A stretch of 16,794 nucleotides of DNA from a virus. Taxonomy: Duplodnaviria; Heunggongvirae; Uroviricota; Caudoviricetes. Positions 1 to 7,248 of this stretch are shown in pieces. Numbering within the stretch: the stretch's first letter is position 1; each line of letters begins with the position of its first letter. The notes below the pieces were generated by a model. The model made no database searches, was not told the origin of the DNA, and saw only the letters and a program-made list of their open reading frames with translations. The translations under genes were made by a program, and so were the position numbers. The stretch lies in the IMG/VR virus record IMGVR_UViG_2547132127_000011. One strand, given 5' to 3'.

Positions 1-1230
1 ATGAGCAGAGCACTTAACAAACTGAGCGATACACAGCTGAGGAAAATCAACGGCACACCCGCCCAAAAAACAGCCTTTCTTAATGACGGTGGAAACCTGA
101 GCGTCAGGCATTCAACCAGTGGCCTTTTAACCTGGTATTTCACTTACAGGGCCGGAACGGGAAGGGGGGCACCACCGGAACGCATTAAGCTGGGAAATTA
201 TCCTGATCTGAGCCTGAAATCAGCCAGGGAAAAAGCCGCCCAGTGTCGCGCATGGCTGGCAGAGGGGAAAAATCCACGTCATGAGCTTAATTACACCGTA
301 CAGGAAGCGTTAAAGCCGGTAACGGTTGGCAATGCGCTCACCTACTGGCTTGAGTCGTACGCAAAGGAAAACCGCGTGGATTATGCCGCCCTGAAAAAGC
401 GCCTTAATAATCACGTAATACAGCACATTGGTGCTATGCCGCTGGATAAATGCGAGCTACGGCACTGGCTGGCCTGTTTTGACCAGGTGGCAAAGCGAAC
501 GCCTGTTACTGCCGGATTCTTGCTACAGACGTGCAAACAGGCGCTTAAGTTCTGCCGGAGGCGGCGCTATGCAATCAGCAACGTTCTTGATGATATGAGT
601 GTGGCGGACGTTGGGAAAAAACCGGATATAAGCGAGCGTGTCTTAAGCACCAAAGAACTGGGCGAATTATTGCAGGCACTGGACAAAAAAATATTCTCCC
701 CCTACTACATCGCGTTAATCCGCCTCCTGATTGTGTTCGGATGCCGGACGGTAGAACTGAGGTTATCGGAGATCAGCGAGTGGGATTTTACCGAAATGCT
801 CTGGACCGTGCCGAAAGAACACAGCAAAACGAAGGTGGCAATATTCCGGCCCATACCGGAAGCAATACTGCCGTTCGTCACGCAGCTGGTGGAGCAGAAC
901 AGGCACACGGGCTTATTGCTGGGGGAAGTGAAACAGGAAACAAGCGTGTCGCAGTACGGCAGATTAGCGCACAGGAGGCTAAATCACCCTCACTGGTCAC
1001 TACATGACATCCGGCGCACCTTTACAACGATGCTGAACGATTTAGGCGTGGATCCTCACGTCGTGGAGCAGCTTACAGGCCACCAGATGCCAGGAATGCA
1101 GCGAGTTTATAATCATTCCCGTTATCTGGATGCTAAACGCAATGCGCTGGATATGTGGACGGAGCGGTTAGGGATACTGGCGGGAACACATGAAAACGTA
1201 ACCACGCTACCAGTAGCCAGAAGAAAATAA
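1..1230 (+). CDS. int: Tyrosine recombinase / integrase, P4-like
   Basis: 409-aa ORF with C-terminal catalytic region (HDIRRTFTT...LTGHQ...VYNHSRY) typical of the phage integrase family; N-terminal region resembles P4-type integrases. ORF starts at window position 1, so the true start and the left attachment site lie at or beyond the window edge. Confidence 0.88.
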   Translation: MSRALNKLSDTQLRKINGTPAQKTAFLNDGGNLSVRHSTSGLLTWYFTYRAGTGRGAPPERIKLGNYPDLSLKSAREKAAQCRAWLAEGKNPRHELNYTVQEALKPVTVGNALTYWLESYAKENRVDYAALKKRLNNHVIQHIGAMPLDKCELRHWLACFDQVAKRTPVTAGFLLQTCKQALKFCRRRRYAISNVLDDMSVADVGKKPDISERVLSTKELGELLQALDKKIFSPYYIALIRLLIVFGCRTVELRLSEISEWDFTEMLWTVPKEHSKTKVAIFRPIPEAILPFVTQLVEQNRHTGLLLGEVKQETSVSQYGRLAHRRLNHPHWSLHDIRRTFTTMLNDLGVDPHVVEQLTGHQMPGMQRVYNHSRYLDAKRNALDMWTERLGILAGTHENVTTLPVARRK

Positions 1231-1285
1231 TTTTTTTCGTGTTTTTTCAGTATGCGCATACTGGATATGCGAACAGATACAACGT

Positions 1286-1325
1286 GCAACAATGAGCAAC
1301 AATGCGGAACAACTACGAACAAGAG
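1286..1325. promoter_or_regulatory. Four tandem 10-bp units each with AACAA core (GCAACAATGA GCAACAATGC GGAACAACTA CGAACAAGAG); candidate protein-binding array
   Basis: Read directly: AACAA at 1288, 1298, 1308 and 1318, exactly one helical turn apart. Its reverse complement (TTGTTCGTAG TTGTTCCGCA ...) closely matches the array at 6982..7010. Confidence 0.4.
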
Positions 1326-1419
1326 GTGAAAAAGTGTACAGATTTATAAGTAGCTGATTTTTAATGTGTTACTGATTTTTTATACACTAGCGAATCACTC
1401 TTTAAATAGCGAGAAAAAA

Positions 1420-1451
1420 GGCATGAAACAATATTTCATGCCTTTGTATTA
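1420..1451. terminator. Hairpin GGCATGAAA-caatat-TTTCATGCC flanked by A-run upstream and T-rich tract downstream; candidate bidirectional intrinsic terminator
   Basis: Perfect 9-bp inverted repeat with 6-nt loop followed by TTTGTATT; about 190 bp downstream of the int stop. Confidence 0.45.
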
Positions 1452-1604
1452 ACGTGAATTTAAAGGATTTTATCCTGATTATTCCTCTTTCTGTAAACCA
1501 TACGGCCTCAACATTTGCCAACTCTGAATCATCCTGACACAATCAGACACATCCCAACGCAATAGAACACGAAATAACTCTTTAAGAAACGAAAGGGGGC
1601 AATA

Positions 1605-1793
1605 GTGTTAAGCACTGATCGGTTTATACGTGAAAAAGAATGCGAAAAGCTAACAGGCCTTAGCCGCTCATGCCGCTACCGCCTGGAAAAGGCCGGACAA
1701 TTCCCATCACGTCGTAAACTTGGCGGTCGTTCCGTTGGCTGGTCTTTATCCGAGGTTCTGGCCTGGAAGGATAGCTGCAAGGCAGTTCATTAA
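1605..1793 (+). CDS. alpA: AlpA-family transcriptional regulator (prophage CP4-57 regulatory protein family)
   Basis: 62-aa ORF, GTG start preceded by AGGGGG; motif LTGLSRS..YRL...G.FP....LGGRSVGW..SEV..W is the AlpA helix-turn-helix signature; sits immediately downstream of int as in P4-like elements and PICIs. Confidence 0.8.
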   Translation: MLSTDRFIREKECEKLTGLSRSCRYRLEKAGQFPSRRKLGGRSVGWSLSEVLAWKDSCKAVH

Positions 1794-1937
1794 TCACGCT
1801 GGCGGCACGCAGCCGCCACACATCAATCATCTGAACACAGAGCTATAACCATGAAGATTGAATATACGCCAGAACGTGGGCGGGGATTCGTTCGCCCTGG
1901 TGAAACTGGAAAACCACAAAATTGGGGTTTTTCAGGC

Positions 1938-1965
1938 ATAAAAAAAGCGGCCCCGAAATGGAGCC
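1938..1965 (-). terminator. Candidate intrinsic terminator for leftward transcription
   Basis: On the minus strand: GCGGCTCC-ATTTC-GGGGCCGC stem-loop followed by TTTTTTT. On the plus strand the same hairpin is followed only by CTTTCT. Confidence 0.35.
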
Positions 1966-2296
1966 GCCTTTCTGAACAGATAACCCGCTGCGCCGTTTGT
2001 GTGTGTGATCCCAAACATAAGCACGGGGATGATAGCCGCTATCAGGCTGGTGGGCAATGCAATCAGTCTGGTTCAGTGCGTTGCCATAACTGCGAAGTTC
2101 TCTCCTTTGATGAGTATTCTTTAAGGTACTTCTCAAGGGCAAAAGAACACGGCGCGAATCGTTCTGATTCATGCTCTTTCTTTCTGCGTCGTCTTTTTCG
2201 TGCAGGTGATGTTTTTTCGGTTGATTCTTCGTTGGTCATTGTGTGCGCCTGTAAAGCAATGCGCCGTAGTACCTCACACCACGGCGCTGATAGTTT

Positions 2297-2476
2297 TTAT
2301 CCTTTGGGTTCTATGCCGCGTTGCTGTAATTCTTTGCGGATTATTCGCTTTATCCAGGCAGCAAGAGAATCATCGCCGTCCTGTTGTTGTGCCTTTTCCA
2401 TCTTTTCCCGTAAGTCAGGATCTAAACGGAACTGGAACGGAGGATTACCACGCCTTTCGTTTTTGTGTGTTGACAC
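2297..2476 (-). CDS. Putative ribbon-helix-helix (Arc/MetJ/CopG-like) DNA-binding protein, 59 aa, GTG start
   Basis: Not in the ORF track (below length cutoff). Translation VSTHKNERRGNPPFQFRLDPDLREKMEKAQQQDGDDSLAAWIKRIIRKELQQRGIEPKG shows a beta-strand (PFQFRL) then helix-turn-helix pattern like Arc repressor (PQFNLRWPREVLDLVRKVAEENGRSVNSEIYQRVM). GAGGTG lies 8 nt upstream of the GTG. Confidence 0.45.
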   Translation of the reverse strand: MSTHKNERRGNPPFQFRLDPDLREKMEKAQQQDGDDSLAAWIKRIIRKELQQRGIEPKG

Positions 2477-2499
2477 GTTAATTACACCTCAGGTAATGT
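2470..2499 (+). promoter_or_regulatory. Candidate sigma-70 promoter (TTGACA - 18 bp - TAATGT) for the rightward small-gene/primase operon, overlapping the start of the divergent RHH gene
   Basis: TTGACA at 2470..2475 and TAATGT at 2494..2499; flanked by TGTGT/ACACA dyads (e.g. GTAATGT...ACATTAC 2493..2523) that could be operator sites. Confidence 0.3.
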
Positions 2500-2605
2500 A
2501 TTTATGTGTAGTGACACATTACACACAATCAACACAAAAAGCAAAGCCCCGCACTGTAGGAGCAGTAACGGGGCTTCTAACCAACAACGTAAACTAGGAG
2601 CCGTT

Positions 2606-2806
2606 ATGGTTGCCGTAAATCATATACCACACCTTGTACACACACAAACGGCCTTTGTGTGGCGTTTTCTGGCACTGAGTGCCGGAGAATCCCAAATCAT
2701 CCACGTAACCGCTTGGACGGAACGCGAAGCGCGTAGCCGTTGCCCGTCCGGTTGTGTTGCTGTATTCGCCGCCCGTATTCGTCAGGGGGAAACCTATGCA
2801 CAATAA
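2606..2806 (+). CDS. Hypothetical small protein (66 aa)
   Basis: Internal ATG of track ORF 2504..2806 with AGGAG 5 nt upstream; first gene of a translationally coupled chain ending in the primase. Confidence 0.5.
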   Translation: MVAVNHIPHLVHTQTAFVWRFLALSAGESQIIHVTAWTEREARSRCPSGCVAVFAARIRQGETYAQ

Positions 2807-3017
2807 AACCACACCGAACGCAGCAGCCGCCGCACTCACTACGCTGATGCACGCGCTTATTGATATTGAATGCACGGCAGAGCTTGCGCAGGGAGAAGAA
2901 CAGAAAGACCGGACACAGTTCGCCCTGGAATGTATCCGATACATCGCAACGCGGTCACTGAATGACGCTAAAAATATTCTTGTTGCCGATTGTGAAAATG
3001 GGGGGGGTTATGCGTGA
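2796..3017 (+). CDS. Hypothetical small protein (73 aa)
   Basis: ATG at 2796 preceded by GGGGGA; overlaps the stop of the preceding gene by 11 nt (coupling). Confidence 0.45.
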   Translation: MHNKTTPNAAAAALTTLMHALIDIECTAELAQGEEQKDRTQFALECIRYIATRSLNDAKNILVADCENGGGYA

Positions 3018-3162
3018 TGATCGTTTTAATTCCCTGAAACAGGAATTTTCCGGCGTTCCTGATGATGCGGCTGATGCGCTTTCGTCAATGCCAGAACTTA
3101 TTAGAGCGGCTTTTTTCTTACTTTCCACGAGAGAATATAAATCAACGGGCTTGATGTACTGA
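3010..3162 (+). CDS. Hypothetical small protein (50 aa)
   Basis: ATG at 3010 overlapping the upstream stop (ATGCGTGA), G-rich tract upstream; internal start of track ORF 2962..3162. Confidence 0.4.
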   Translation: MRDDRFNSLKQEFSGVPDDAADALSSMPELIRAAFFLLSTREYKSTGLMY

Positions 3163-3231
3163 ATATCGCCGCCGATTATGCTGATTTCGTGACAGAGGTT
3201 ATTTTAAGAAAAACGACGGACGGGGATTAAT

Positions 3232-3465
3232 ATGCGTGATATTTACCACGAAACAATAGACCGCGCATTTCTTGCACTTTCTCACAGTGAAAACATGCTG
3301 GAAATATTGCGCATATGGCTTGAAACACTTGGCGACAATGAACGCGACAAACAAAAATCAAGAATTGCCACGGCATTAATAACGCTTCTTGAGCCTGTAA
3401 TAATGGAACTGCAAGAAATAGATCTATTGCACGACAGATATAAAGAACAGCACACCGGAGAATAA
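3232..3465 (+). CDS. Hypothetical protein (77 aa)
   Basis: ORF track; same orientation and operon context; acidic/helical composition. Confidence 0.5.
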   Translation: MRDIYHETIDRAFLALSHSENMLEILRIWLETLGDNERDKQKSRIATALITLLEPVIMELQEIDLLHDRYKEQHTGE

Positions 3466-3470
3466 AAATA

Positions 3471-3770
3471 ATGAAACTTAAATATTCTGGCTTAACTGCC
3501 AGTGGCAACACTCACCCTAAATTTACGCGCGGTGATATTTACCGCGACCAGTACGGCGGCATGGTAACGATTAAAGGCGTGGCAGAACGGCGCATCACCT
3601 ACCGCCGTGAAGGTTACGAATATGATTGCGTGATGCCTGTTTATCAATTCCGGCGTGATTTCACGCTGGTACAGGCAGCGCCCCGCAGTAAACCAACCAG
3701 CAGGGAGAAAGCACGCGCCAATATTCAGGAAATAAAAAAGATGCTTAACGTATTCAGGGGTAAAAAATGA
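3471..3770 (+). CDS. Hypothetical protein (99 aa)
   Basis: ORF track; GGAG about 11 nt upstream; stop overlaps the primase start (ATGA). Confidence 0.55.
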   Translation: MKLKYSGLTASGNTHPKFTRGDIYRDQYGGMVTIKGVAERRITYRREGYEYDCVMPVYQFRRDFTLVQAAPRSKPTSREKARANIQEIKKMLNVFRGKK

Positions 3771-5515
3771 AACTGGCACCGAACGTAAAAAAACAGCCAC
3801 GCGGAATAAAACACAAAGACACAGAGGTAATTATCTTTGCGGGTAGTGATGCCTGGTCGCACGCGAAACAATGGCAGGAGCAGGATGGCCCCGCATCCGG
3901 CGATAATGTGCCGCCTGTGTGGTTTGGGCCAAATCAGCTTGCCGAACTTGATGCACTGAAGATTGTTCCGGATGGAAAAAAACGCGTAAGGCTGTACCAG
4001 GCCGGAGAACTGGATTTGGTGGAGACCAAAAAGATTGGTCAGAAGCTGGCGGCGGCAGATATTCAGGACGCAAATTTTTACCCCGAAGGAATGCACGTCC
4101 AGAAGTGTGAAAACTGGCGGCGCTATCTGAATGCTGAGCGTGAAAATATTGCCGCAGGGCTTACCATGCCGGAGCAGAAAAATACGCAACTGGCACAAAT
4201 GGCAGACAGTGAGCGCGCGCAGCTGCTTGCCGAGCGCTTTGATGGCGTTTGTGTGCATCAGGAAAGTGAAATCGTTCACGTATGGCGCGGCGGGGTATGG
4301 TGTCCGGTCAGCACAATGGAACTTAGCCGCGAAATGGTGGCGATCTATTCAGAGCACAGGGCCACTTTCAGCAAGCGCGTAATCAATAACGCCGTGGAAG
4401 CGTTAAAAGTTATTGCCGAACCAATGGGCGAGCCGTCCGGCGATTTGCTGCCGTTCGCCAATGGTGCGCTTGACCTGAAAACGGGGGAATTTTCCCCGCA
4501 CACGCCGGAGAACTGGATCACCACGCACAACGGCATTGAGTACACGCCACCAGCACCAGGGGAGAACATCCGCGATAACGCGCTAAACTTTCATAAATGG
4601 CTTGAGCACGCAGCCGGAAAAGACCAGCGCAAGATGATGCGTATATGTGCCGCGCTGTACATGATTATGGTGAACCGGTACGACTGGCAGATGTTTATTG
4701 AGGCCACCGGAGACGGCGGGAGCGGTAAAAGTACATTCACACACATAGCCAGCCTTCTGGCAGGGAAACAGAACACGGTAAGCGCTGAAATGACATCGCT
4801 TGATGATGCTGGTGGACGTGCGCAGGTTGTCGGGAGTCGTCTTATCGTCCTGGCTGACCAGCCGAAATATACAGGCGAAGGAACGGGCATCAAGAAAATC
4901 ACGGGCGGTGACCCCGTGGAAATTAACCCGAAATACGAAAAGCGTTTCACGGCTGTAATCAGGGCGGTGGTGCTGGCGACCAACAATAACCCGATGATAT
5001 TCACCGAACGGGCCGGAGGTGTGGCACGTCGTCGCGTGATTTTCCGTTTCGACAATATCGTTAGTGAGGCCGAAAAAGACAGGGAGCTACCGGAAAAGAT
5101 TGCGGCTGAAATCCCTGTCATTATCCGCCGATTGCTGGCGAACTTTACCGACTCTGAGAAAGCACGGGCTTTACTACTGGAACAGCGTGACGGTGATGAA
5201 GCTCTGGCAATAAAGCAACAGACGGATCCGGTTATTGAGTTTTGCCAGTTCCTGAATTTTCTGGAGGAAGCACGCGGCCTGATGATGGGCGGCGGTGGCG
5301 ATTCAGTGAAGTACACGACCAGAAACAGCCTTTACCGCGTCTATCTGGCGTTTATGGCGTACGCAGGCAGGAGCAAACCGCTAAACGTAAATGACTTTGG
5401 CAAGGCTATGAAGCCAGCCGCGAAAGTTTACGGACATGAATATATTACGCGGAAAGTTAAGGGAGTAACGCAGACTAACGCAATAACAACAGACGAGTGC
5501 GACGCGTTTTTATAA
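3767..5515 (+). CDS. Replication protein: P4-family primase C-terminal / D5-N / SF3 helicase-type P-loop NTPase (PICI pri-rep-like)
   Basis: 582-aa ORF with Walker A TGDGGSGKST, a Walker B-like hydrophobic run (RLIVLADQP), and downstream KKITGGDPVEINPKYEKRF...RRRVIFRF block characteristic of the phage/plasmid primase P4-family C-terminal domain. Confidence 0.85.
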   Translation: MKLAPNVKKQPRGIKHKDTEVIIFAGSDAWSHAKQWQEQDGPASGDNVPPVWFGPNQLAELDALKIVPDGKKRVRLYQAGELDLVETKKIGQKLAAADIQDANFYPEGMHVQKCENWRRYLNAERENIAAGLTMPEQKNTQLAQMADSERAQLLAERFDGVCVHQESEIVHVWRGGVWCPVSTMELSREMVAIYSEHRATFSKRVINNAVEALKVIAEPMGEPSGDLLPFANGALDLKTGEFSPHTPENWITTHNGIEYTPPAPGENIRDNALNFHKWLEHAAGKDQRKMMRICAALYMIMVNRYDWQMFIEATGDGGSGKSTFTHIASLLAGKQNTVSAEMTSLDDAGGRAQVVGSRLIVLADQPKYTGEGTGIKKITGGDPVEINPKYEKRFTAVIRAVVLATNNNPMIFTERAGGVARRRVIFRFDNIVSEAEKDRELPEKIAAEIPVIIRRLLANFTDSEKARALLLEQRDGDEALAIKQQTDPVIEFCQFLNFLEEARGLMMGGGGDSVKYTTRNSLYRVYLAFMAYAGRSKPLNVNDFGKAMKPAAKVYGHEYITRKVKGVTQTNAITTDECDAFL

Positions 5516-5530
5516 TTTTTTGTAATTGCT

Positions 5531-5756
5531 GTCTACCCTGTCTACCTGAGTAAAGAAAAATACATTTAATTCAGTGCATTAAGTTAGGTAGATAGCCTTT
5601 TTTTACTGTCTACCCACTATCTACCCTCTCTACCTGATTTTACCTGAATCAGACAGGGAGGTAGACACGGGGTAGATAGTGGATAAAAGCACTCTACCCC
5701 GCTGAAAGCAGCGCCATTACTGGCATGAGGGCCACTAAGGTAGATAAGGTAGACAA
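5531..5756. repeat. Iteron cluster: at least 11 copies of GGTAGAYA / TRTCTACC in both orientations; candidate replication origin
   Basis: Read directly: GTCTACC at 5531, 5608; TCTACC at 5541, 5620, 5629, 5693; GGTAGA at 5587, 5660, 5671, 5739, 5748. Lies immediately downstream of the primase/helicase gene, analogous to P4 ori/crr iterons bound by alpha protein. Confidence 0.6.
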
Positions 5757-5803
5757 GGGGAGGCACAACTCAAAACTTTTTAAACGAGGGGGTAAAAATA
5801 AAT

Positions 5804-6082
5804 ATGCACACTTCAGGGAAATTTAATAAATCATTCAAAAAACGCAGAGACAGAACAGAACCGAAATATCGCGCGTTAGACATGACAGAGCACGCTTTAA
5901 AGGTGGCAATCAGAACGATAGACCGCCACGCGGGGGAAGGATACGCGAAAGCACATCCCGAACTGATAAGCGCATTCATGACCACGACGGCGGCAAATTT
6001 TGCCACGCTGACAGAGCGGGAGATTGCCGAAGCGGAACAGGTAACAACAATCAACGTTAAAACCGGAGAGGTGGAATCATGA
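5804..6082 (+). CDS. Hypothetical protein (92 aa)
   Basis: ORF track; GAGGGGG upstream; first gene after the iteron region. Confidence 0.5.
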   Translation: MHTSGKFNKSFKKRRDRTEPKYRALDMTEHALKVAIRTIDRHAGEGYAKAHPELISAFMTTTAANFATLTEREIAEAEQVTTINVKTGEVES

Positions 6083-6384
6083 GCGAACCAAAATTTGGTG
6101 AAAAATTTTACAAGCACAACGGACGGATCACGATTCTGCAAATAAGCGCAGCTACACCAGGCTGGTGGGTTGAAACAGACGAAGGATCCTCACCCGTGGC
6201 ATCATGGGCGCTTTGTGTGCTTAGTTACCCTGACCGCGATGTGTATCAGGATATTCTGCCTGTGATATCCACTGACAAAGGCATGAAACCCGTAGACATC
6301 AAAAAAATGGGGTTTCAGTGCGTAATGCTCACTGAAAAAATGATGGAAGAGATGAAAAAGAACAATGCCGGATCGCTTCACTGA
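6079..6384 (+). CDS. Hypothetical protein (101 aa)
   Basis: ORF track; start overlaps the upstream stop (ATGA coupling). Confidence 0.55.
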   Translation: MSEPKFGEKFYKHNGRITILQISAATPGWWVETDEGSSPVASWALCVLSYPDRDVYQDILPVISTDKGMKPVDIKKMGFQCVMLTEKMMEEMKKNNAGSLH

Positions 6385-6393
6385 GGTGGCAAT

Positions 6394-6555
6394 ATGACAG
6401 CACAAATTGCAGCTTACGGGCGGCTGGTGGGCGACCCGCTGGTAAAACAGAGCAGCAAGGGCACACCGGAGCCGCCAACGGAGAACTACGCAGACCTGAG
6501 AAATGCAGTAAATCGCACTTACGCAGACATGGGGCTGAGCAAATTAGCAGAGTAG
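6394..6555 (+). CDS. Hypothetical small protein (53 aa)
   Basis: Not in ORF track (short). ATG at 6394 with GAGGTG 5 nt upstream; translation MTAQIAAYGRLVGDPLVKQSSKGTPEPPTENYADLRNAVNRTYADMGLSKLAE; followed by the terminator at 6579. Confidence 0.4.
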   Translation: MTAQIAAYGRLVGDPLVKQSSKGTPEPPTENYADLRNAVNRTYADMGLSKLAE

Positions 6556-6578
6556 GAATATCAGAACCACACCACGCA

Positions 6579-6601
6579 GCCGGAGCAATCCGGCTTTTTT
6601 T
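6579..6601 (+). terminator. Intrinsic terminator GCCGGA-GCAA-TCCGGC + T7 (copy 1)
   Basis: Perfect 6-bp stem, tetraloop, run of 7 T; read directly. Confidence 0.65.
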
Positions 6602-6696
6602 GCGTCATTTGAAACGGTATGGAGCACTACTGGCTTTTCGTCACGGCCCGGCATAGTTACTATCTGAAACAAACAGACACAACAGAGGAAAACGCA

Positions 6697-6921
6697 ATGC
6701 CGATGAAATTTGATGAGATACTTAAACAGCGTGATAAATACCATGCTGACAACATGGAGACGATGAATATCACTGATTACCGCGCATTTCTGGAAACGGG
6801 GGCGCTGATTGAAAAGGATCATCATGGTTTTGTTCGTTGCGCGCTATCCGGTGAAATGCTGGCAGTAAATCCTGAACAGACAGATGCATTGATAGAATTT
6901 CTGAAAGGGATCAGAGACTGA
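6697..6921 (+). CDS. Hypothetical protein (74 aa)
   Basis: Internal ATG of track ORF 6619..6921 with GAGGA 7 nt upstream; sits between two copies of the same terminator hairpin. Confidence 0.5.
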   Translation: MPMKFDEILKQRDKYHADNMETMNITDYRAFLETGALIEKDHHGFVRCALSGEMLAVNPEQTDALIEFLKGIRD

Positions 6922-6941
6922 GCACCCATACAGCACATACA

Positions 6942-6962
6942 GCCGGAGCAATCCGGCTTTTT
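6942..6962 (+). terminator. Intrinsic terminator GCCGGA-GCAA-TCCGGC + T5 (copy 2, same 23-bp unit as 6579..6601)
   Basis: Identical stem-loop to copy 1 followed by TTTTTGTTATTTTTT. Confidence 0.65.
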
Positions 6963-6981
6963 GTTATTTTTTGTAAATTAT

Positions 6982-7010
6982 TTGTTCGTGGTTGTTCCAC
7001 GTTGTTCACT
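6982..7010. promoter_or_regulatory. Three 10-bp-phased TTGTTC units (TTGTTCGTGG TTGTTCCACG TTGTTCACTG) about 215 bp upstream of the capsid start
   Basis: Read directly; 15-mer TTGTTCCACGTTGTT (6992..7006) is repeated exactly at 15201..15215; array is the reverse complement of the AACAA array at 1286..1325. Confidence 0.4.
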
Positions 7011-7224
7011 GAGCGGATCGGCATATTTTACCCGAACTGAATCATGATTATTCTCGCCCGTGGTGCCAGGACGCTGGGGCCACTTTCCCGCCTGTTAATG
7101 TGCTCGCCAATATTCATTACCAGGCGGGAAAACGATCGGTGCGATTACTGATTTCCTTATGAAAAACGGTTGAGTGTTTGCCGCGTCCTGGAGTTCCTTA
7201 CTTAACCCCAGGACTTTTTTTATG

Positions 7225-7233
7225 CAGAGAATA
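7225..7233. repeat. IS1 target-site duplication, left copy (CAGAGAATA)
   Basis: Identical 9-mer at 8002..8010 immediately flanking the other IS1 end. Confidence 0.9.
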
Positions 7234-7248
7234 GGTAATGACTCCAAC

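What the first reader, a model, noticed from the sequence alone, without database searches (positions are those of the whole stretch)
5531..5756. Dense bidirectional iteron cluster downstream of the primase/helicase gene
About 11 copies of GGTAGAYA or its complement within 230 bp, several in head-to-tail pairs, in an AT-rich non-coding stretch. This is the expected form of an origin bound by the adjacent initiator, as P4 alpha binds its ori/crr octamers, but the motif differs from the P4 TGTTCACC iteron and would define a distinct replicon specificity.
Basis: partly seen in the sequence, partly recalled or inferred. Interest (0 to 1): 0.6.

Follow-up and report, generated by a model that had tools for sequence, protein, structure and literature searches.

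The report
Known replication origin of a phage-satellite island
The repeat cluster is real and is the replication origin of an E. coli phage-satellite island (PICI); it is 95% identical to the EcCICFT073 origin that was tested experimentally in 2018, so it is not new.

Summary
Observation confirmed. GGTAGAYA occurs 9 times, all within 5530-5755 (0.48 expected in the whole window). With two variants there are 11 GGTAGA cores in the 288-bp gap between the initiator gene stop (5515) and the next ATG (5804). Local shuffles give a mean of 0.21 and a maximum of 3.

Interpretation supported, but not novel. The window is a chromosomal island between roxA/int and phoQ. The gap is 95% identical, iteron for iteron, to the one after pri-rep in EcCICFT073. 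Fillol-Salom et al. 2018 tested that region: pri-ori supported plasmid maintenance, and deleting exactly this region reduced it. About 10% of complete E. coli genomes carry it.

Residues 486-577 of the adjacent protein match the solved P4 alpha origin-binding domain. GGTAGA cores stay fixed in diverged relatives while spacers drift. Across about 80 relatives, the octamer changes with the C-terminal domain.

Additions: the iteron differs from P4's only in the central dinucleotide. Each half of the origin copies the P4 ori layout (3 direct, 1 inverted, long spacer, 2 direct), joined head to head. The "primase" has no detectable primase domain.

Already known; low interest.

The parts
3767..5515 (+). 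pri-rep initiator gene (582 aa): D5_N plus an SF3 helicase (DUF5906) plus a Pox_D5-type C-terminal domain. No Zn-ribbon or Toprim primase domain.
   Evidence: Pfam. TIGR01613 'primase_Cterm'. 90% identical to EcCICFT073 Pri-Rep, about 99% from residue 150 on. 39% identical to P4 alpha residues 326-762. P4 alpha carries Zn_Ribbon_Prim and Toprim at residues 30-300; this protein does not.
5222..5497 (+). Segment encoding the presumed origin-binding winged-helix domain (Pri-Rep residues 486-577).
   Evidence: phmmer hit to PDB 1KA8, the P4 alpha origin-binding domain, E=7e-7. Sequence motifs in this domain covary with iteron class across relatives.
5530..5755 (.). Whole iteron array, i.e. the PICI replication origin. 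It consists of two inverted modules with a dyad axis near 5635-5659.
   Evidence: Orthologous to the EcCICFT073 ori that was deleted in pJP2028.
5530..5537 (-). Iteron 1, GGTAGACA.
   Evidence: Core invariant in 7 relatives.
5539..5546 (-). Iteron 2, GGTAGACA (9 bp from iteron 1).
   Evidence: Core invariant in 7 relatives.
5547..5586 (.). 40-bp AT-rich spacer (23% GC); the likely DNA-unwinding region. It corresponds to the 35-bp, 17% GC spacer of P4 ori.
   Evidence: An AT-rich region flanked by iterons is described for Gram-negative PICI oris in PMC6092414. That it melts is an inference.
5587..5594 (+). Iteron 3, GGTAGATA (single inverted copy of the left module).
5607..5614 (-). Iteron 4, GGTAGACA.
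5618..5625 (-). Iteron 5, GGTAGATA (11 bp from iteron 4).
5627..5634 (-). Iteron 6, GGTAGAGA (9 bp from iteron 5).
5660..5667 (+). Iteron 7, GGTAGACA.
5671..5678 (+). Iteron 8, GGTAGATA (11 bp from iteron 7).
5691..5698 (-). Iteron 9, GGTAGAGT (single inverted copy of the right module).
   Evidence: Core TCTACC at 5693-5698. Conserved in all 7 relatives.
5703..5730 (.). Conserved non-iteron block (CTGAAAGCAGCGCCATTACTGGCATGAG) inside the right-hand long spacer. Function unknown.
   Evidence: Nearly invariant across E. coli relatives whose spacers otherwise diverge. Absent from the Klebsiella relative L008, where this spacer is AT-rich.
5739..5746 (+). Iteron 10, GGTAGATA.
5748..5755 (+). Iteron 11, GGTAGACA (9 bp from iteron 10).
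5771..5803 (+). Conserved leader and ribosome-binding region (AAAACTTTTTAAACGAGGGGGTAAAAATAAAT) of the next gene (5804-6082). Probably not part of the origin.
   Evidence: Invariant block directly before the ATG in all relatives.
1..1230 (+). Island integrase (context: left end of the island).
   Evidence: Pfam Arm-DNA-bind_3 and Phage_integrase. Same position next to roxA as in CFT073.

Best explanation
This is the vegetative replication origin of an EcCICFT073-type phage-inducible chromosomal island (PICI). Here the island is fused to a capsid-forming packaging module.

Proposed mechanism. After the helper phage induces the island and it excises, the Pri-Rep protein encoded just upstream acts as initiator. 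Pri-Rep is an SF3 hexameric helicase with a C-terminal winged-helix origin-binding domain homologous to that of P4 alpha. It binds the GGTAGAYA octamers through that domain.

The 11 octamers form two mirror-image modules. Each has 3 direct copies, about 20 bp, 1 inverted copy, about 48 bp, then 2 direct copies. This places initiator assemblies head to head. Binding melts DNA, most likely at the 23% GC spacer 5547-5586. The helicase then loads itself and the island replicates.

What is shown: the repeat array and its statistics; orthology to a functionally tested ori; homology of the C-terminal domain to a solved origin-binding domain; conservation of the cores; covariation of iteron and domain.

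What is inferred: direct binding by this particular protein; the melting site; double-hexamer loading; and who makes the primers, since no primase domain is detectable.
For: (1) Enrichment. 9 exact GGTAGAYA and 11 GGTAGA cores lie within 226 bp, against 0.48 (whole window) and 0.21 (local) expected.

(2) Orthology. The 288-bp gap is 95.1% identical to CFT073 1392241-1392527 (H38). That stretch lies between the pri-rep stop and the next gene of EcCICFT073. All 11 cores are at identical positions. The Pri-Rep proteins are 90% identical.

(3) Experiment on the ortholog (PMC6092414). pK03Blue pri-ori was maintained at the restrictive temperature. Both pri-delta-ori and delta-pri-ori were significantly worse. 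The delta-ori reverse primer ends at L002 9004, 4 bp after the pri stop. The pri-ori reverse primer lies at about L002 9291-9311. The deleted 'ori' is therefore exactly the iteron gap.

(4) Pri-Rep residues 486-577 match PDB 1KA8, the P4 alpha origin-binding domain (E=7e-7). Residues 186-430 match the SaPI PriRep5 helicase 7OLA. In SaPI Reps the C-terminal winged helix binds iterons located just 3' of rep (PMC9371898).

(5) Footprint. In 7 E. coli relatives with gap identity down to about 72%, 56 of 66 core columns are invariant, against 43 of 170 non-core columns (Fisher p=4e-17).

(6) Family-wide pattern. In 80 loci from other species, the 420 bp after the gene usually holds 7-13 copies of a lineage-specific octamer, with about 16 classes, many fitting GGTnnnCA; in a sizeable minority, chiefly Xenorhabdus/Photorhabdus, the top motif has only 3-5 copies. 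The spacing layout is conserved in the better-populated classes. Iteron class tracks C-terminal-domain motifs.

(7) Minimal pair L013/L014. The proteins are 98% identical, with 5 differences in the last 105 aa. Yet nearly all the iterons switched in concert from GGTGTTCAT to GGTATACAC.
Against: No binding or replication experiment exists for this exact allele. 14 of 288 bases differ from CFT073, though none lies in a GGTAGA core.

In the published assay, deleting ori reduced colony numbers but did not abolish them.

The covariation of iterons and C-terminal domain is confounded by physical linkage: the two are adjacent and could simply be co-inherited or co-recombined.

No primase domain is detectable in Pri-Rep, so the priming step is unexplained.

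The right-hand long spacer is GC-rich and conserved (5703-5730). The simple symmetric model does not explain this.

The capsid module of this particular island is damaged (IS1 insertion and a nonsense codon). The origin may therefore no longer be used for transfer in this strain.
Confidence: 0.9

Rival explanations
1. The array is mainly a cis-acting enhancer or copy-control site, like P4 crr, which also lies immediately 3' of alpha. On this reading it is not where replication starts. Alternatively only the left module, with its AT-rich spacer, is the origin and the right module plays the crr-like role.
For: P4 crr lies directly after the alpha gene and carries bidirectional octamers 9 bp apart. 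The two window modules are asymmetric: the left long spacer is 23% GC, while the right one is 56% GC and conserved.
Against: Only one GGTAGA cluster exists in the whole island; the other two cores in the window are isolated and lie in int and phoQ. There is therefore no separate ori for a crr to assist. The pri gene plus this single region sufficed for plasmid maintenance in the ortholog. Each half matches the layout of P4 ori, not that of a crr repeat.
Confidence: 0.07
2. The repeats are operator sites for a transcription factor controlling the downstream operon (5804 onward), with no direct role in replication. The factor could be Pri-Rep itself or another island regulator.
For: The array sits directly upstream of the next gene. 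A conserved non-iteron block and a conserved leader lie at its 3' end.
Against: The consensus scan found no sigma-70-like promoter on the + strand in 5400-5900. PICIs of Gram-negative bacteria are described as transcribed unidirectionally from the alpA promoter (PMC6092414). Deleting the orthologous region impaired replication-dependent plasmid maintenance. The octamer tracks the initiator's origin-binding domain.
Confidence: 0.02
3. The cluster is a packaging (cos/pac) recognition site for the island's terminase.
For: The island encodes HNH, TerS and TerL. Small-terminase binding sites are often repeated.
Against: The same array occurs in EcCICFT073, which per PMC6092414 encodes no TerS homolog and relies on two cosN sequences resembling those of its helper phage. 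It also occurs in relatives with quite different packaging modules. The motif covaries with Pri-Rep, not with the terminase.
Confidence: 0.01

Closest known systems
EcCICFT073 pri-rep/ori replicon (Gram-negative PICI; Fillol-Salom et al. 2018, ISME J, PMC6092414)
   Same: Same chromosomal site (between roxA/int and phoQ). Same int, alpA and pri-rep order. Pri-Rep is 90% identical. The gap is 95% identical, with all 11 GGTAGA cores at the same positions and in the same orientations. [quoted passage not shown]
   Different: 14 point differences in the gap, including the Y position of three iterons. The N-terminal 150 aa of Pri-Rep are diverged. The right half of the island is a capsid-forming head and terminase module rather than the c1499/c1500 module, and it is damaged by IS1 and a nonsense codon.
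Satellite phage P4 ori/crr and alpha protein
   Same: The initiator's helicase and origin-binding domains are homologous (39% identity to alpha 326-762; PDB 1KA8 hit). The octamer iteron differs only in its two central bases (TGTCTACC vs TGTTCACC). Each half of the window array reproduces the P4 ori layout. P4: GGTGAACA x3, 14 nt, one inverted copy, 35 nt at 17% GC, GGTGAACA x2. Window left half on the minus strand: x3, 12 nt, one inverted copy, 40 nt at 23% GC, x2. P4 crr, like this array, lies just 3' of the initiator gene.
   Different: P4 has two separate cis sites about 4.5 kb apart (ori and crr). The island has one composite site made of two inverted modules. No TGTTCACC occurs in the window and no GGTAGA in P4. 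Pri-Rep lacks alpha's Zn-ribbon and Toprim primase region.
SaPI Rep/ori replicons of Staphylococcus aureus (e.g. SaPI5 PriRep5, PDB 7OLA; PMC9371898)
   Same: The ori lies immediately downstream of the initiator-helicase gene. It has 6-12 short iterons on both sides of an AT-rich region, in opposite orientations. A C-terminal winged helix recognises the iterons. The helicase is self-loading. The helicase core is detectably homologous (E=1e-15).
   Different: SaPI iterons are penta- or hexanucleotides of unrelated sequence. Only the helicase core (Pri-Rep residues 186-430) gave a detectable match to PriRep5. The host is Gram-positive.
Klebsiella satellite 'Escherichia phage vB_KppS-Ant' (LR881103) and its relatives
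   Same: Pri-Rep is 40% identical over its full length. The array after the gene has the same 2-1-3 / 2-1-2 layout and spacing.
   Different: It uses the P4-type octamer TGTTCACC and a P4-like origin-binding domain.

Membership tests
Gram-negative PICI replication origin (EcCICFT073 type) | Lies immediately 3' of the pri-rep initiator gene. | tested here: met
   The gene stops at 5515 and the first iteron starts at 5530.
Gram-negative PICI replication origin (EcCICFT073 type) | [quoted passage not shown] | tested here: met
   11 octamers. The 40-bp spacer 5547-5586 is 23% GC and lies between iterons 2 and 3. The overall arrangement is dyad-symmetric.
Gram-negative PICI replication origin (EcCICFT073 type) | Sequence orthology to the experimentally tested EcCICFT073 ori. 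| tested here: met
   95.1% identity over 287 of 288 bp to CFT073, with the same iteron positions. The paper's primers map the tested region to this gap.
Gram-negative PICI replication origin (EcCICFT073 type) | Island context: integrase, AlpA regulator and rightward unidirectional genes at a PICI-specific att site. | tested here: met
   int is at 1-1230. An AlpA-family gene is annotated in the orthologous islands at the same site. Flanks are roxA and phoQ.
Gram-negative PICI replication origin (EcCICFT073 type) | Supports replication together with the cognate Pri-Rep. | not testable with these tools
   Shown only for the CFT073 ortholog, using plasmids pJP2027-2029 (PMC6092414).
P4 ori/crr-alpha system | Initiator with an alpha-type SF3 helicase and a C-terminal origin-binding domain. 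| tested here: met
   39% identity to alpha residues 326-762. 1KA8 hit at E=7e-7.
P4 ori/crr-alpha system | Type I iteron TGTTCACC. | tested here: not met
   0 copies in the window. The iteron here is TRTCTACC.
P4 ori/crr-alpha system | Bipartite cis requirement: ori plus a distant crr. | tested here: not met
   A single cluster. Only two isolated GGTAGA cores lie elsewhere in the window, which spans the island from the integrase gene to the flanking phoQ gene.
P4 ori/crr-alpha system | N-terminal Zn-ribbon and Toprim primase domain in the initiator. | tested here: not met
   Pfam finds these in alpha (residues 30-300) but nothing in Pri-Rep residues 1-150. The N-terminus matches only phrog_2850 (unknown function) and has no PDB hit.
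P4 ori/crr-alpha system | Module layout: 3 direct iterons, short spacer, 1 inverted, AT-rich spacer, 2 direct. | tested here: met
   Centre-to-centre spacings are 10-11-22-43-10 in P4 ori. They are 9-11-20-48-9 in the window's left half and 11-20-48-9 in its right half.
Iteron plasmids (RepA/pi/RepE type) | Rep_3-family initiator with 17-22-bp direct iterons. | tested here: not met
   The initiator is an SF3 helicase with D5_N, DUF5906 and Pox_D5 domains. The iterons are 8-bp and bidirectional.

The most novel reading that the evidence does not exclude
The array belongs to a family-wide origin 'code' that does not appear in the literature I could search. Initiators related to P4 alpha and PICI Pri-Rep across Enterobacterales and Aeromonas keep one fixed origin scaffold, but only the better-populated iteron classes show it clearly. 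The scaffold is two P4-ori-like modules head to head. They re-specify only the central bases of a GGTnnnCA octamer.

The re-specification appears to come from a few changes in the presumed wing and recognition helix of the C-terminal domain. Examples: KERK[T/N]RG[V/M]VTN accompanies GGTGTTCAT vs GGTATACAC in proteins that are 98% identical. A 5-residue wing insertion accompanies the iteron classes GGTAGACAGT, GGTGGACAGTT and GGCGGACAGTT.

This would let co-resident satellites replicate without cross-talk. It would also make P4's split ori/crr a derived form of the same unit.
Probability: 0.45. Interest if true: 0.35.

Novelty: already known. Interest (0 to 1): 0.15.

Why it matters
For the finding itself, little. 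It re-identifies a published, functionally tested satellite origin that sits in roughly one in ten complete E. coli genomes.

Its practical value is for annotation. The gap after 'P4-family primase' genes in such islands can be labelled as ori, and the GGTAGAYA class gives the replicon type.

The comparative by-products could be of modest use to people studying satellite incompatibility or engineering orthogonal replicons. These are the P4-ori-like half-modules, the lineage-specific octamers, and a natural specificity-swap pair with only five amino-acid changes.

Tried and rejected
(1) Chance or low complexity: rejected by whole-window and local dinucleotide shuffles.

(2) Promoter or terminator in the gap: the consensus scan found no + strand promoter and no terminator in 5400-5900, only one minus-strand match at chance level.

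(3) Structured RNA: no Rfam family reaches its gathering score anywhere in the window.

(4) DnaA box: TTATCCACT (8 of 9 to consensus, from memory) lies on the minus strand at 5678-5686. It is not conserved in relatives L003-L007, so I treated it as chance.

(5) Small palindrome CTGATT/AATCAG at the dyad centre (5634-5653): not conserved in relatives.

(6) Hairpin GCCA-TTAC-TGGC in the conserved block: broken without compensation in L005-L007.

(7) AlphaFold model of Pri-Rep residues 470-582 without an alignment: mean pLDDT 56, with the wing region below 50. It was too poor to assign wing and helix, so those assignments rest on winged-helix topology and the 1KA8 homology only.

(8) Literature searches for 'GGTAGA' with 'iteron', and for TGTTCACC, gave nothing relevant. 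The iteron sequences in Fig. 2a of PMC6092414 are in an image and could not be read. Two literature calls failed on a term-length rule.

(9) N-terminal 140 aa of Pri-Rep as a primase: no Pfam or PDB match, only phrog_2850 of unknown function. Unresolved.

Full report
**Observation**

The stretch 5516-5803 lies between the stop codon of a 582-aa gene (3767-5515) and the ATG of the next gene (5804). No ORF of 50 aa or more lies in 5516-5769.

GGTAGAYA occurs 9 times in the 16.8-kb window, all between 5530 and 5755. The expectation from dinucleotide shuffles is 0.48. Two variants share the GGTAGA core: GGTAGAGA at 5627-5634 and GGTAGAGT at 5691-5698. The only other GGTAGA cores in the window are isolated, at 750 and 16302.

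In 5000 dinucleotide-preserving shuffles of the 288-bp gap alone, GGTAGA averages 0.21 (maximum 3). No hexamer of any kind exceeds 5 copies.

'AT-rich' holds for the left half (35% GC), and above all for the 40-bp spacer 5547-5586 (23% GC). It does not hold for the right half (53% GC).

**Anatomy**

I write GGTAGA on the + strand as '>'. The array then reads: << (5530, 5539), a 40-bp AT-rich spacer, > (5587), T7, <<< (5607, 5618, 5627), the centre, >> (5660, 5671), < (5691), a 39-bp spacer, >> (5739, 5748).

Centre-to-centre spacings, read outward from the middle, are 9-11-20-48-9 on the left and 11-20-48-9 on the right. The array is therefore a large imperfect palindrome. Degenerate extra copies flank the centre: ATTTTACC at 5637-5644 and ATCAGACA at 5648-5655. 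In some relatives these positions hold full copies.

**Context**

The window is an E. coli chromosomal island. It begins with an integrase (1-1230). It then carries a DUF4222 gene, the 582-aa gene, a head, protease, portal, connector, HNH, TerS and TerL block, and finally phoQ.

A 501-bp query spanning the gap has near-identical copies in 602 of 5426 complete E. coli genomes; the 288-bp gap alone matches in 564. All copies are chromosomal. One of them is strain CFT073, at 95.1% identity over the whole gap. There it lies between the stop of the 'DNA primase family protein' and the next gene, in the island between roxA and phoQ. That island is EcCICFT073. A knockout-primer arm published for its pri gene (EcoCFT073-pri-4c) contains the first two iterons and maps to this spot.

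All 11 cores are at the same positions in CFT073. The two proteins are 90% identical, and essentially identical from residue 150 onward.

**What is already known**

Fillol-Salom et al. 2018 (PMC6092414) describe the region 3' of pri-rep in Gram-negative PICIs as the replication origin. [quoted passage not shown] They tested it for EcCICFT073. A temperature-sensitive vector carrying pri-ori formed colonies at 44 degrees C. The pri-delta-ori and delta-pri-ori versions did so significantly less well.

I mapped their primers. The delta-ori construct ends 4 bp after the pri stop codon. The pri-ori construct ends about 20 bp into the next gene. What they removed is therefore exactly the gap studied here.

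**Evidence that the adjacent protein is the binder**

The protein has D5_N, an SF3 helicase (DUF5906) and a Pox_D5-type C-terminal domain.

- Residues 486-577 match the solved P4 alpha origin-binding domain (PDB 1KA8, E=7e-7).
- Residues 186-430 match the SaPI5 PriRep5 helicase (7OLA).
- The protein aligns to P4 alpha residues 326-762 at 39% identity.

Comparative data agree.

- In seven E. coli relatives whose gaps are as little as about 72% identical, 56 of 66 core columns are invariant, against 43 of 170 other columns (p=4e-17).
- A scan of one genome per species returned 80 related loci. The 420 bp after the gene usually holds 7-13 copies of a lineage-specific octamer, although in a sizeable minority of loci, chiefly Xenorhabdus/Photorhabdus, the top motif has only 3-5 copies. 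Examples are GGTAGAYA, GGTGAACA, GGTGTTCAT, GGTATACAC, GGTGCACAG, GGCGGACAGTT and GGTCACTG.
- In the better-populated classes these octamers are laid out with the same spacing.
- The octamer class tracks sequence motifs in the C-terminal domain.

The cleanest case is Escherichia sp. ESNIH1 against Pseudocitrobacter faecalis. The proteins are 98% identical, with five differences in the last 105 residues. Nearly every iteron has changed in concert from GGTGTTCAT to GGTATACAC. Because the domain and the origin are adjacent, linkage confounds this covariation. It is supporting evidence, not proof.

**Relation to P4**

TGTTCACC is absent from the window and GGTAGA is absent from P4. But TGTCTACC and TGTTCACC differ only in the two central bases.

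The annotated P4 ori reads GGTGAACA x3, 14 nt, one inverted copy, 35 nt at 17% GC, GGTGAACA x2. That is the layout of each half of the window array. The island's origin therefore looks like two P4-ori-like modules joined head to head. P4 instead keeps an ori and a separate crr, which lies directly after alpha.

A Klebsiella satellite (LR881103) has a Pri-Rep 40% identical to this one. It has the full two-module layout built from the P4 octamer itself. This softens the statement in PMC6092414 that no other known replicon shares this organisation.

Two defining P4 features are not met here. There is no second cis site, and the protein lacks alpha's zinc ribbon and Toprim primase region. Its N-terminal 140 residues match only a PHROG of unknown function and have no PDB hit. 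'Primase' is therefore an inherited name, and the source of primers is open.

**Unexplained or rejected**

- A 28-bp block (5703-5730) in the right-hand long spacer is conserved among E. coli relatives. It has no iteron, no compensated hairpin and no convincing promoter.
- A DnaA-box-like 9-mer at 5678-5686 is not conserved.
- Rfam finds nothing in the window.
- A single-sequence structure model of the C-terminal domain was too poor to use.

**Verdict**

However, it is the known origin of the EcCICFT073-type PICI replicon. Novelty: already known. Interest: low.

The modest new points are the dinucleotide relationship to the P4 iteron, the P4-ori-like half-modules, the absence of a primase domain, and the iteron/domain covariation with a natural five-residue specificity-swap pair.

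Noticed in passing
window 7234-8003: An IS1 copy (InsB ORF at 7249-7752, minus strand) is inserted just upstream of the island's major capsid gene. It is absent from a 99%-identical module in strain STEC1587 (L090). No complete E. coli genome in the collection covers 80% or more of 6000-9300.
   Followed up: partly
window 8824-8826: The major capsid gene (8050-9156, one reading frame) has an in-frame TGA where the relative L090 has TGG (Trp). Together with the IS1 insertion, this suggests the capsid-forming module is inactivated in this strain.
   Followed up: partly
window 1-5800 vs 6000-14600; L002, L090: The island is a mosaic. Its left part (int, pri-rep, ori, at the roxA/phoQ site) is EcCICFT073-type. 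Its right part is a capsid-forming (cf-PICI-like) head, HNH and terminase module. In STEC1587 that module sits in an island at a different site (near mdtJ) with a different pri-rep/ori allele.
   Followed up: partly
window 3767-4186: The N-terminal 140 aa of the so-called primase have no Pfam or PDB match, only phrog_2850 (unknown function). They replace the Zn-ribbon and Toprim primase region of P4 alpha. It is unclear how replication is primed.
   Followed up: partly
window 5703-5730: A conserved non-iteron block (CTGAAAGCAGCGCCATTACTGGCATGAG) lies inside the origin. It is nearly invariant in E. coli relatives whose other spacers diverge, and it is absent from the Klebsiella relative. No function assigned.
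   Followed up: partly
L013 3265-3560 and L014 3265-3560: A natural specificity swap. The Pri-Rep proteins are 98% identical, with 5 changes in the last 105 aa. Nearly all the origin iterons changed together from GGTGTTCAT to GGTATACAC.
   Followed up: partly
L008 9753-10010 (LR881103, vB_KppS-Ant): A 16.5-kb Klebsiella satellite deposited as a phage has the same two-module origin layout after its Pri-Rep, but built from the P4 octamer TGTTCACC.
   Followed up: yes
loci L016-L069: Several Xenorhabdus genomes carry many paralogous pri-rep loci, for example at least 4 in X. yunnanensis and 6 in X. innexi. Some have only weak repeat signals downstream (3-5 copies of GATGTATAG-like motifs).
   Followed up: no
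window 5678-5686 (minus strand): A DnaA-box-like TTATCCACT lies between iterons 8 and 9. It is present in CFT073 but not conserved in more distant relatives.
   Followed up: yes
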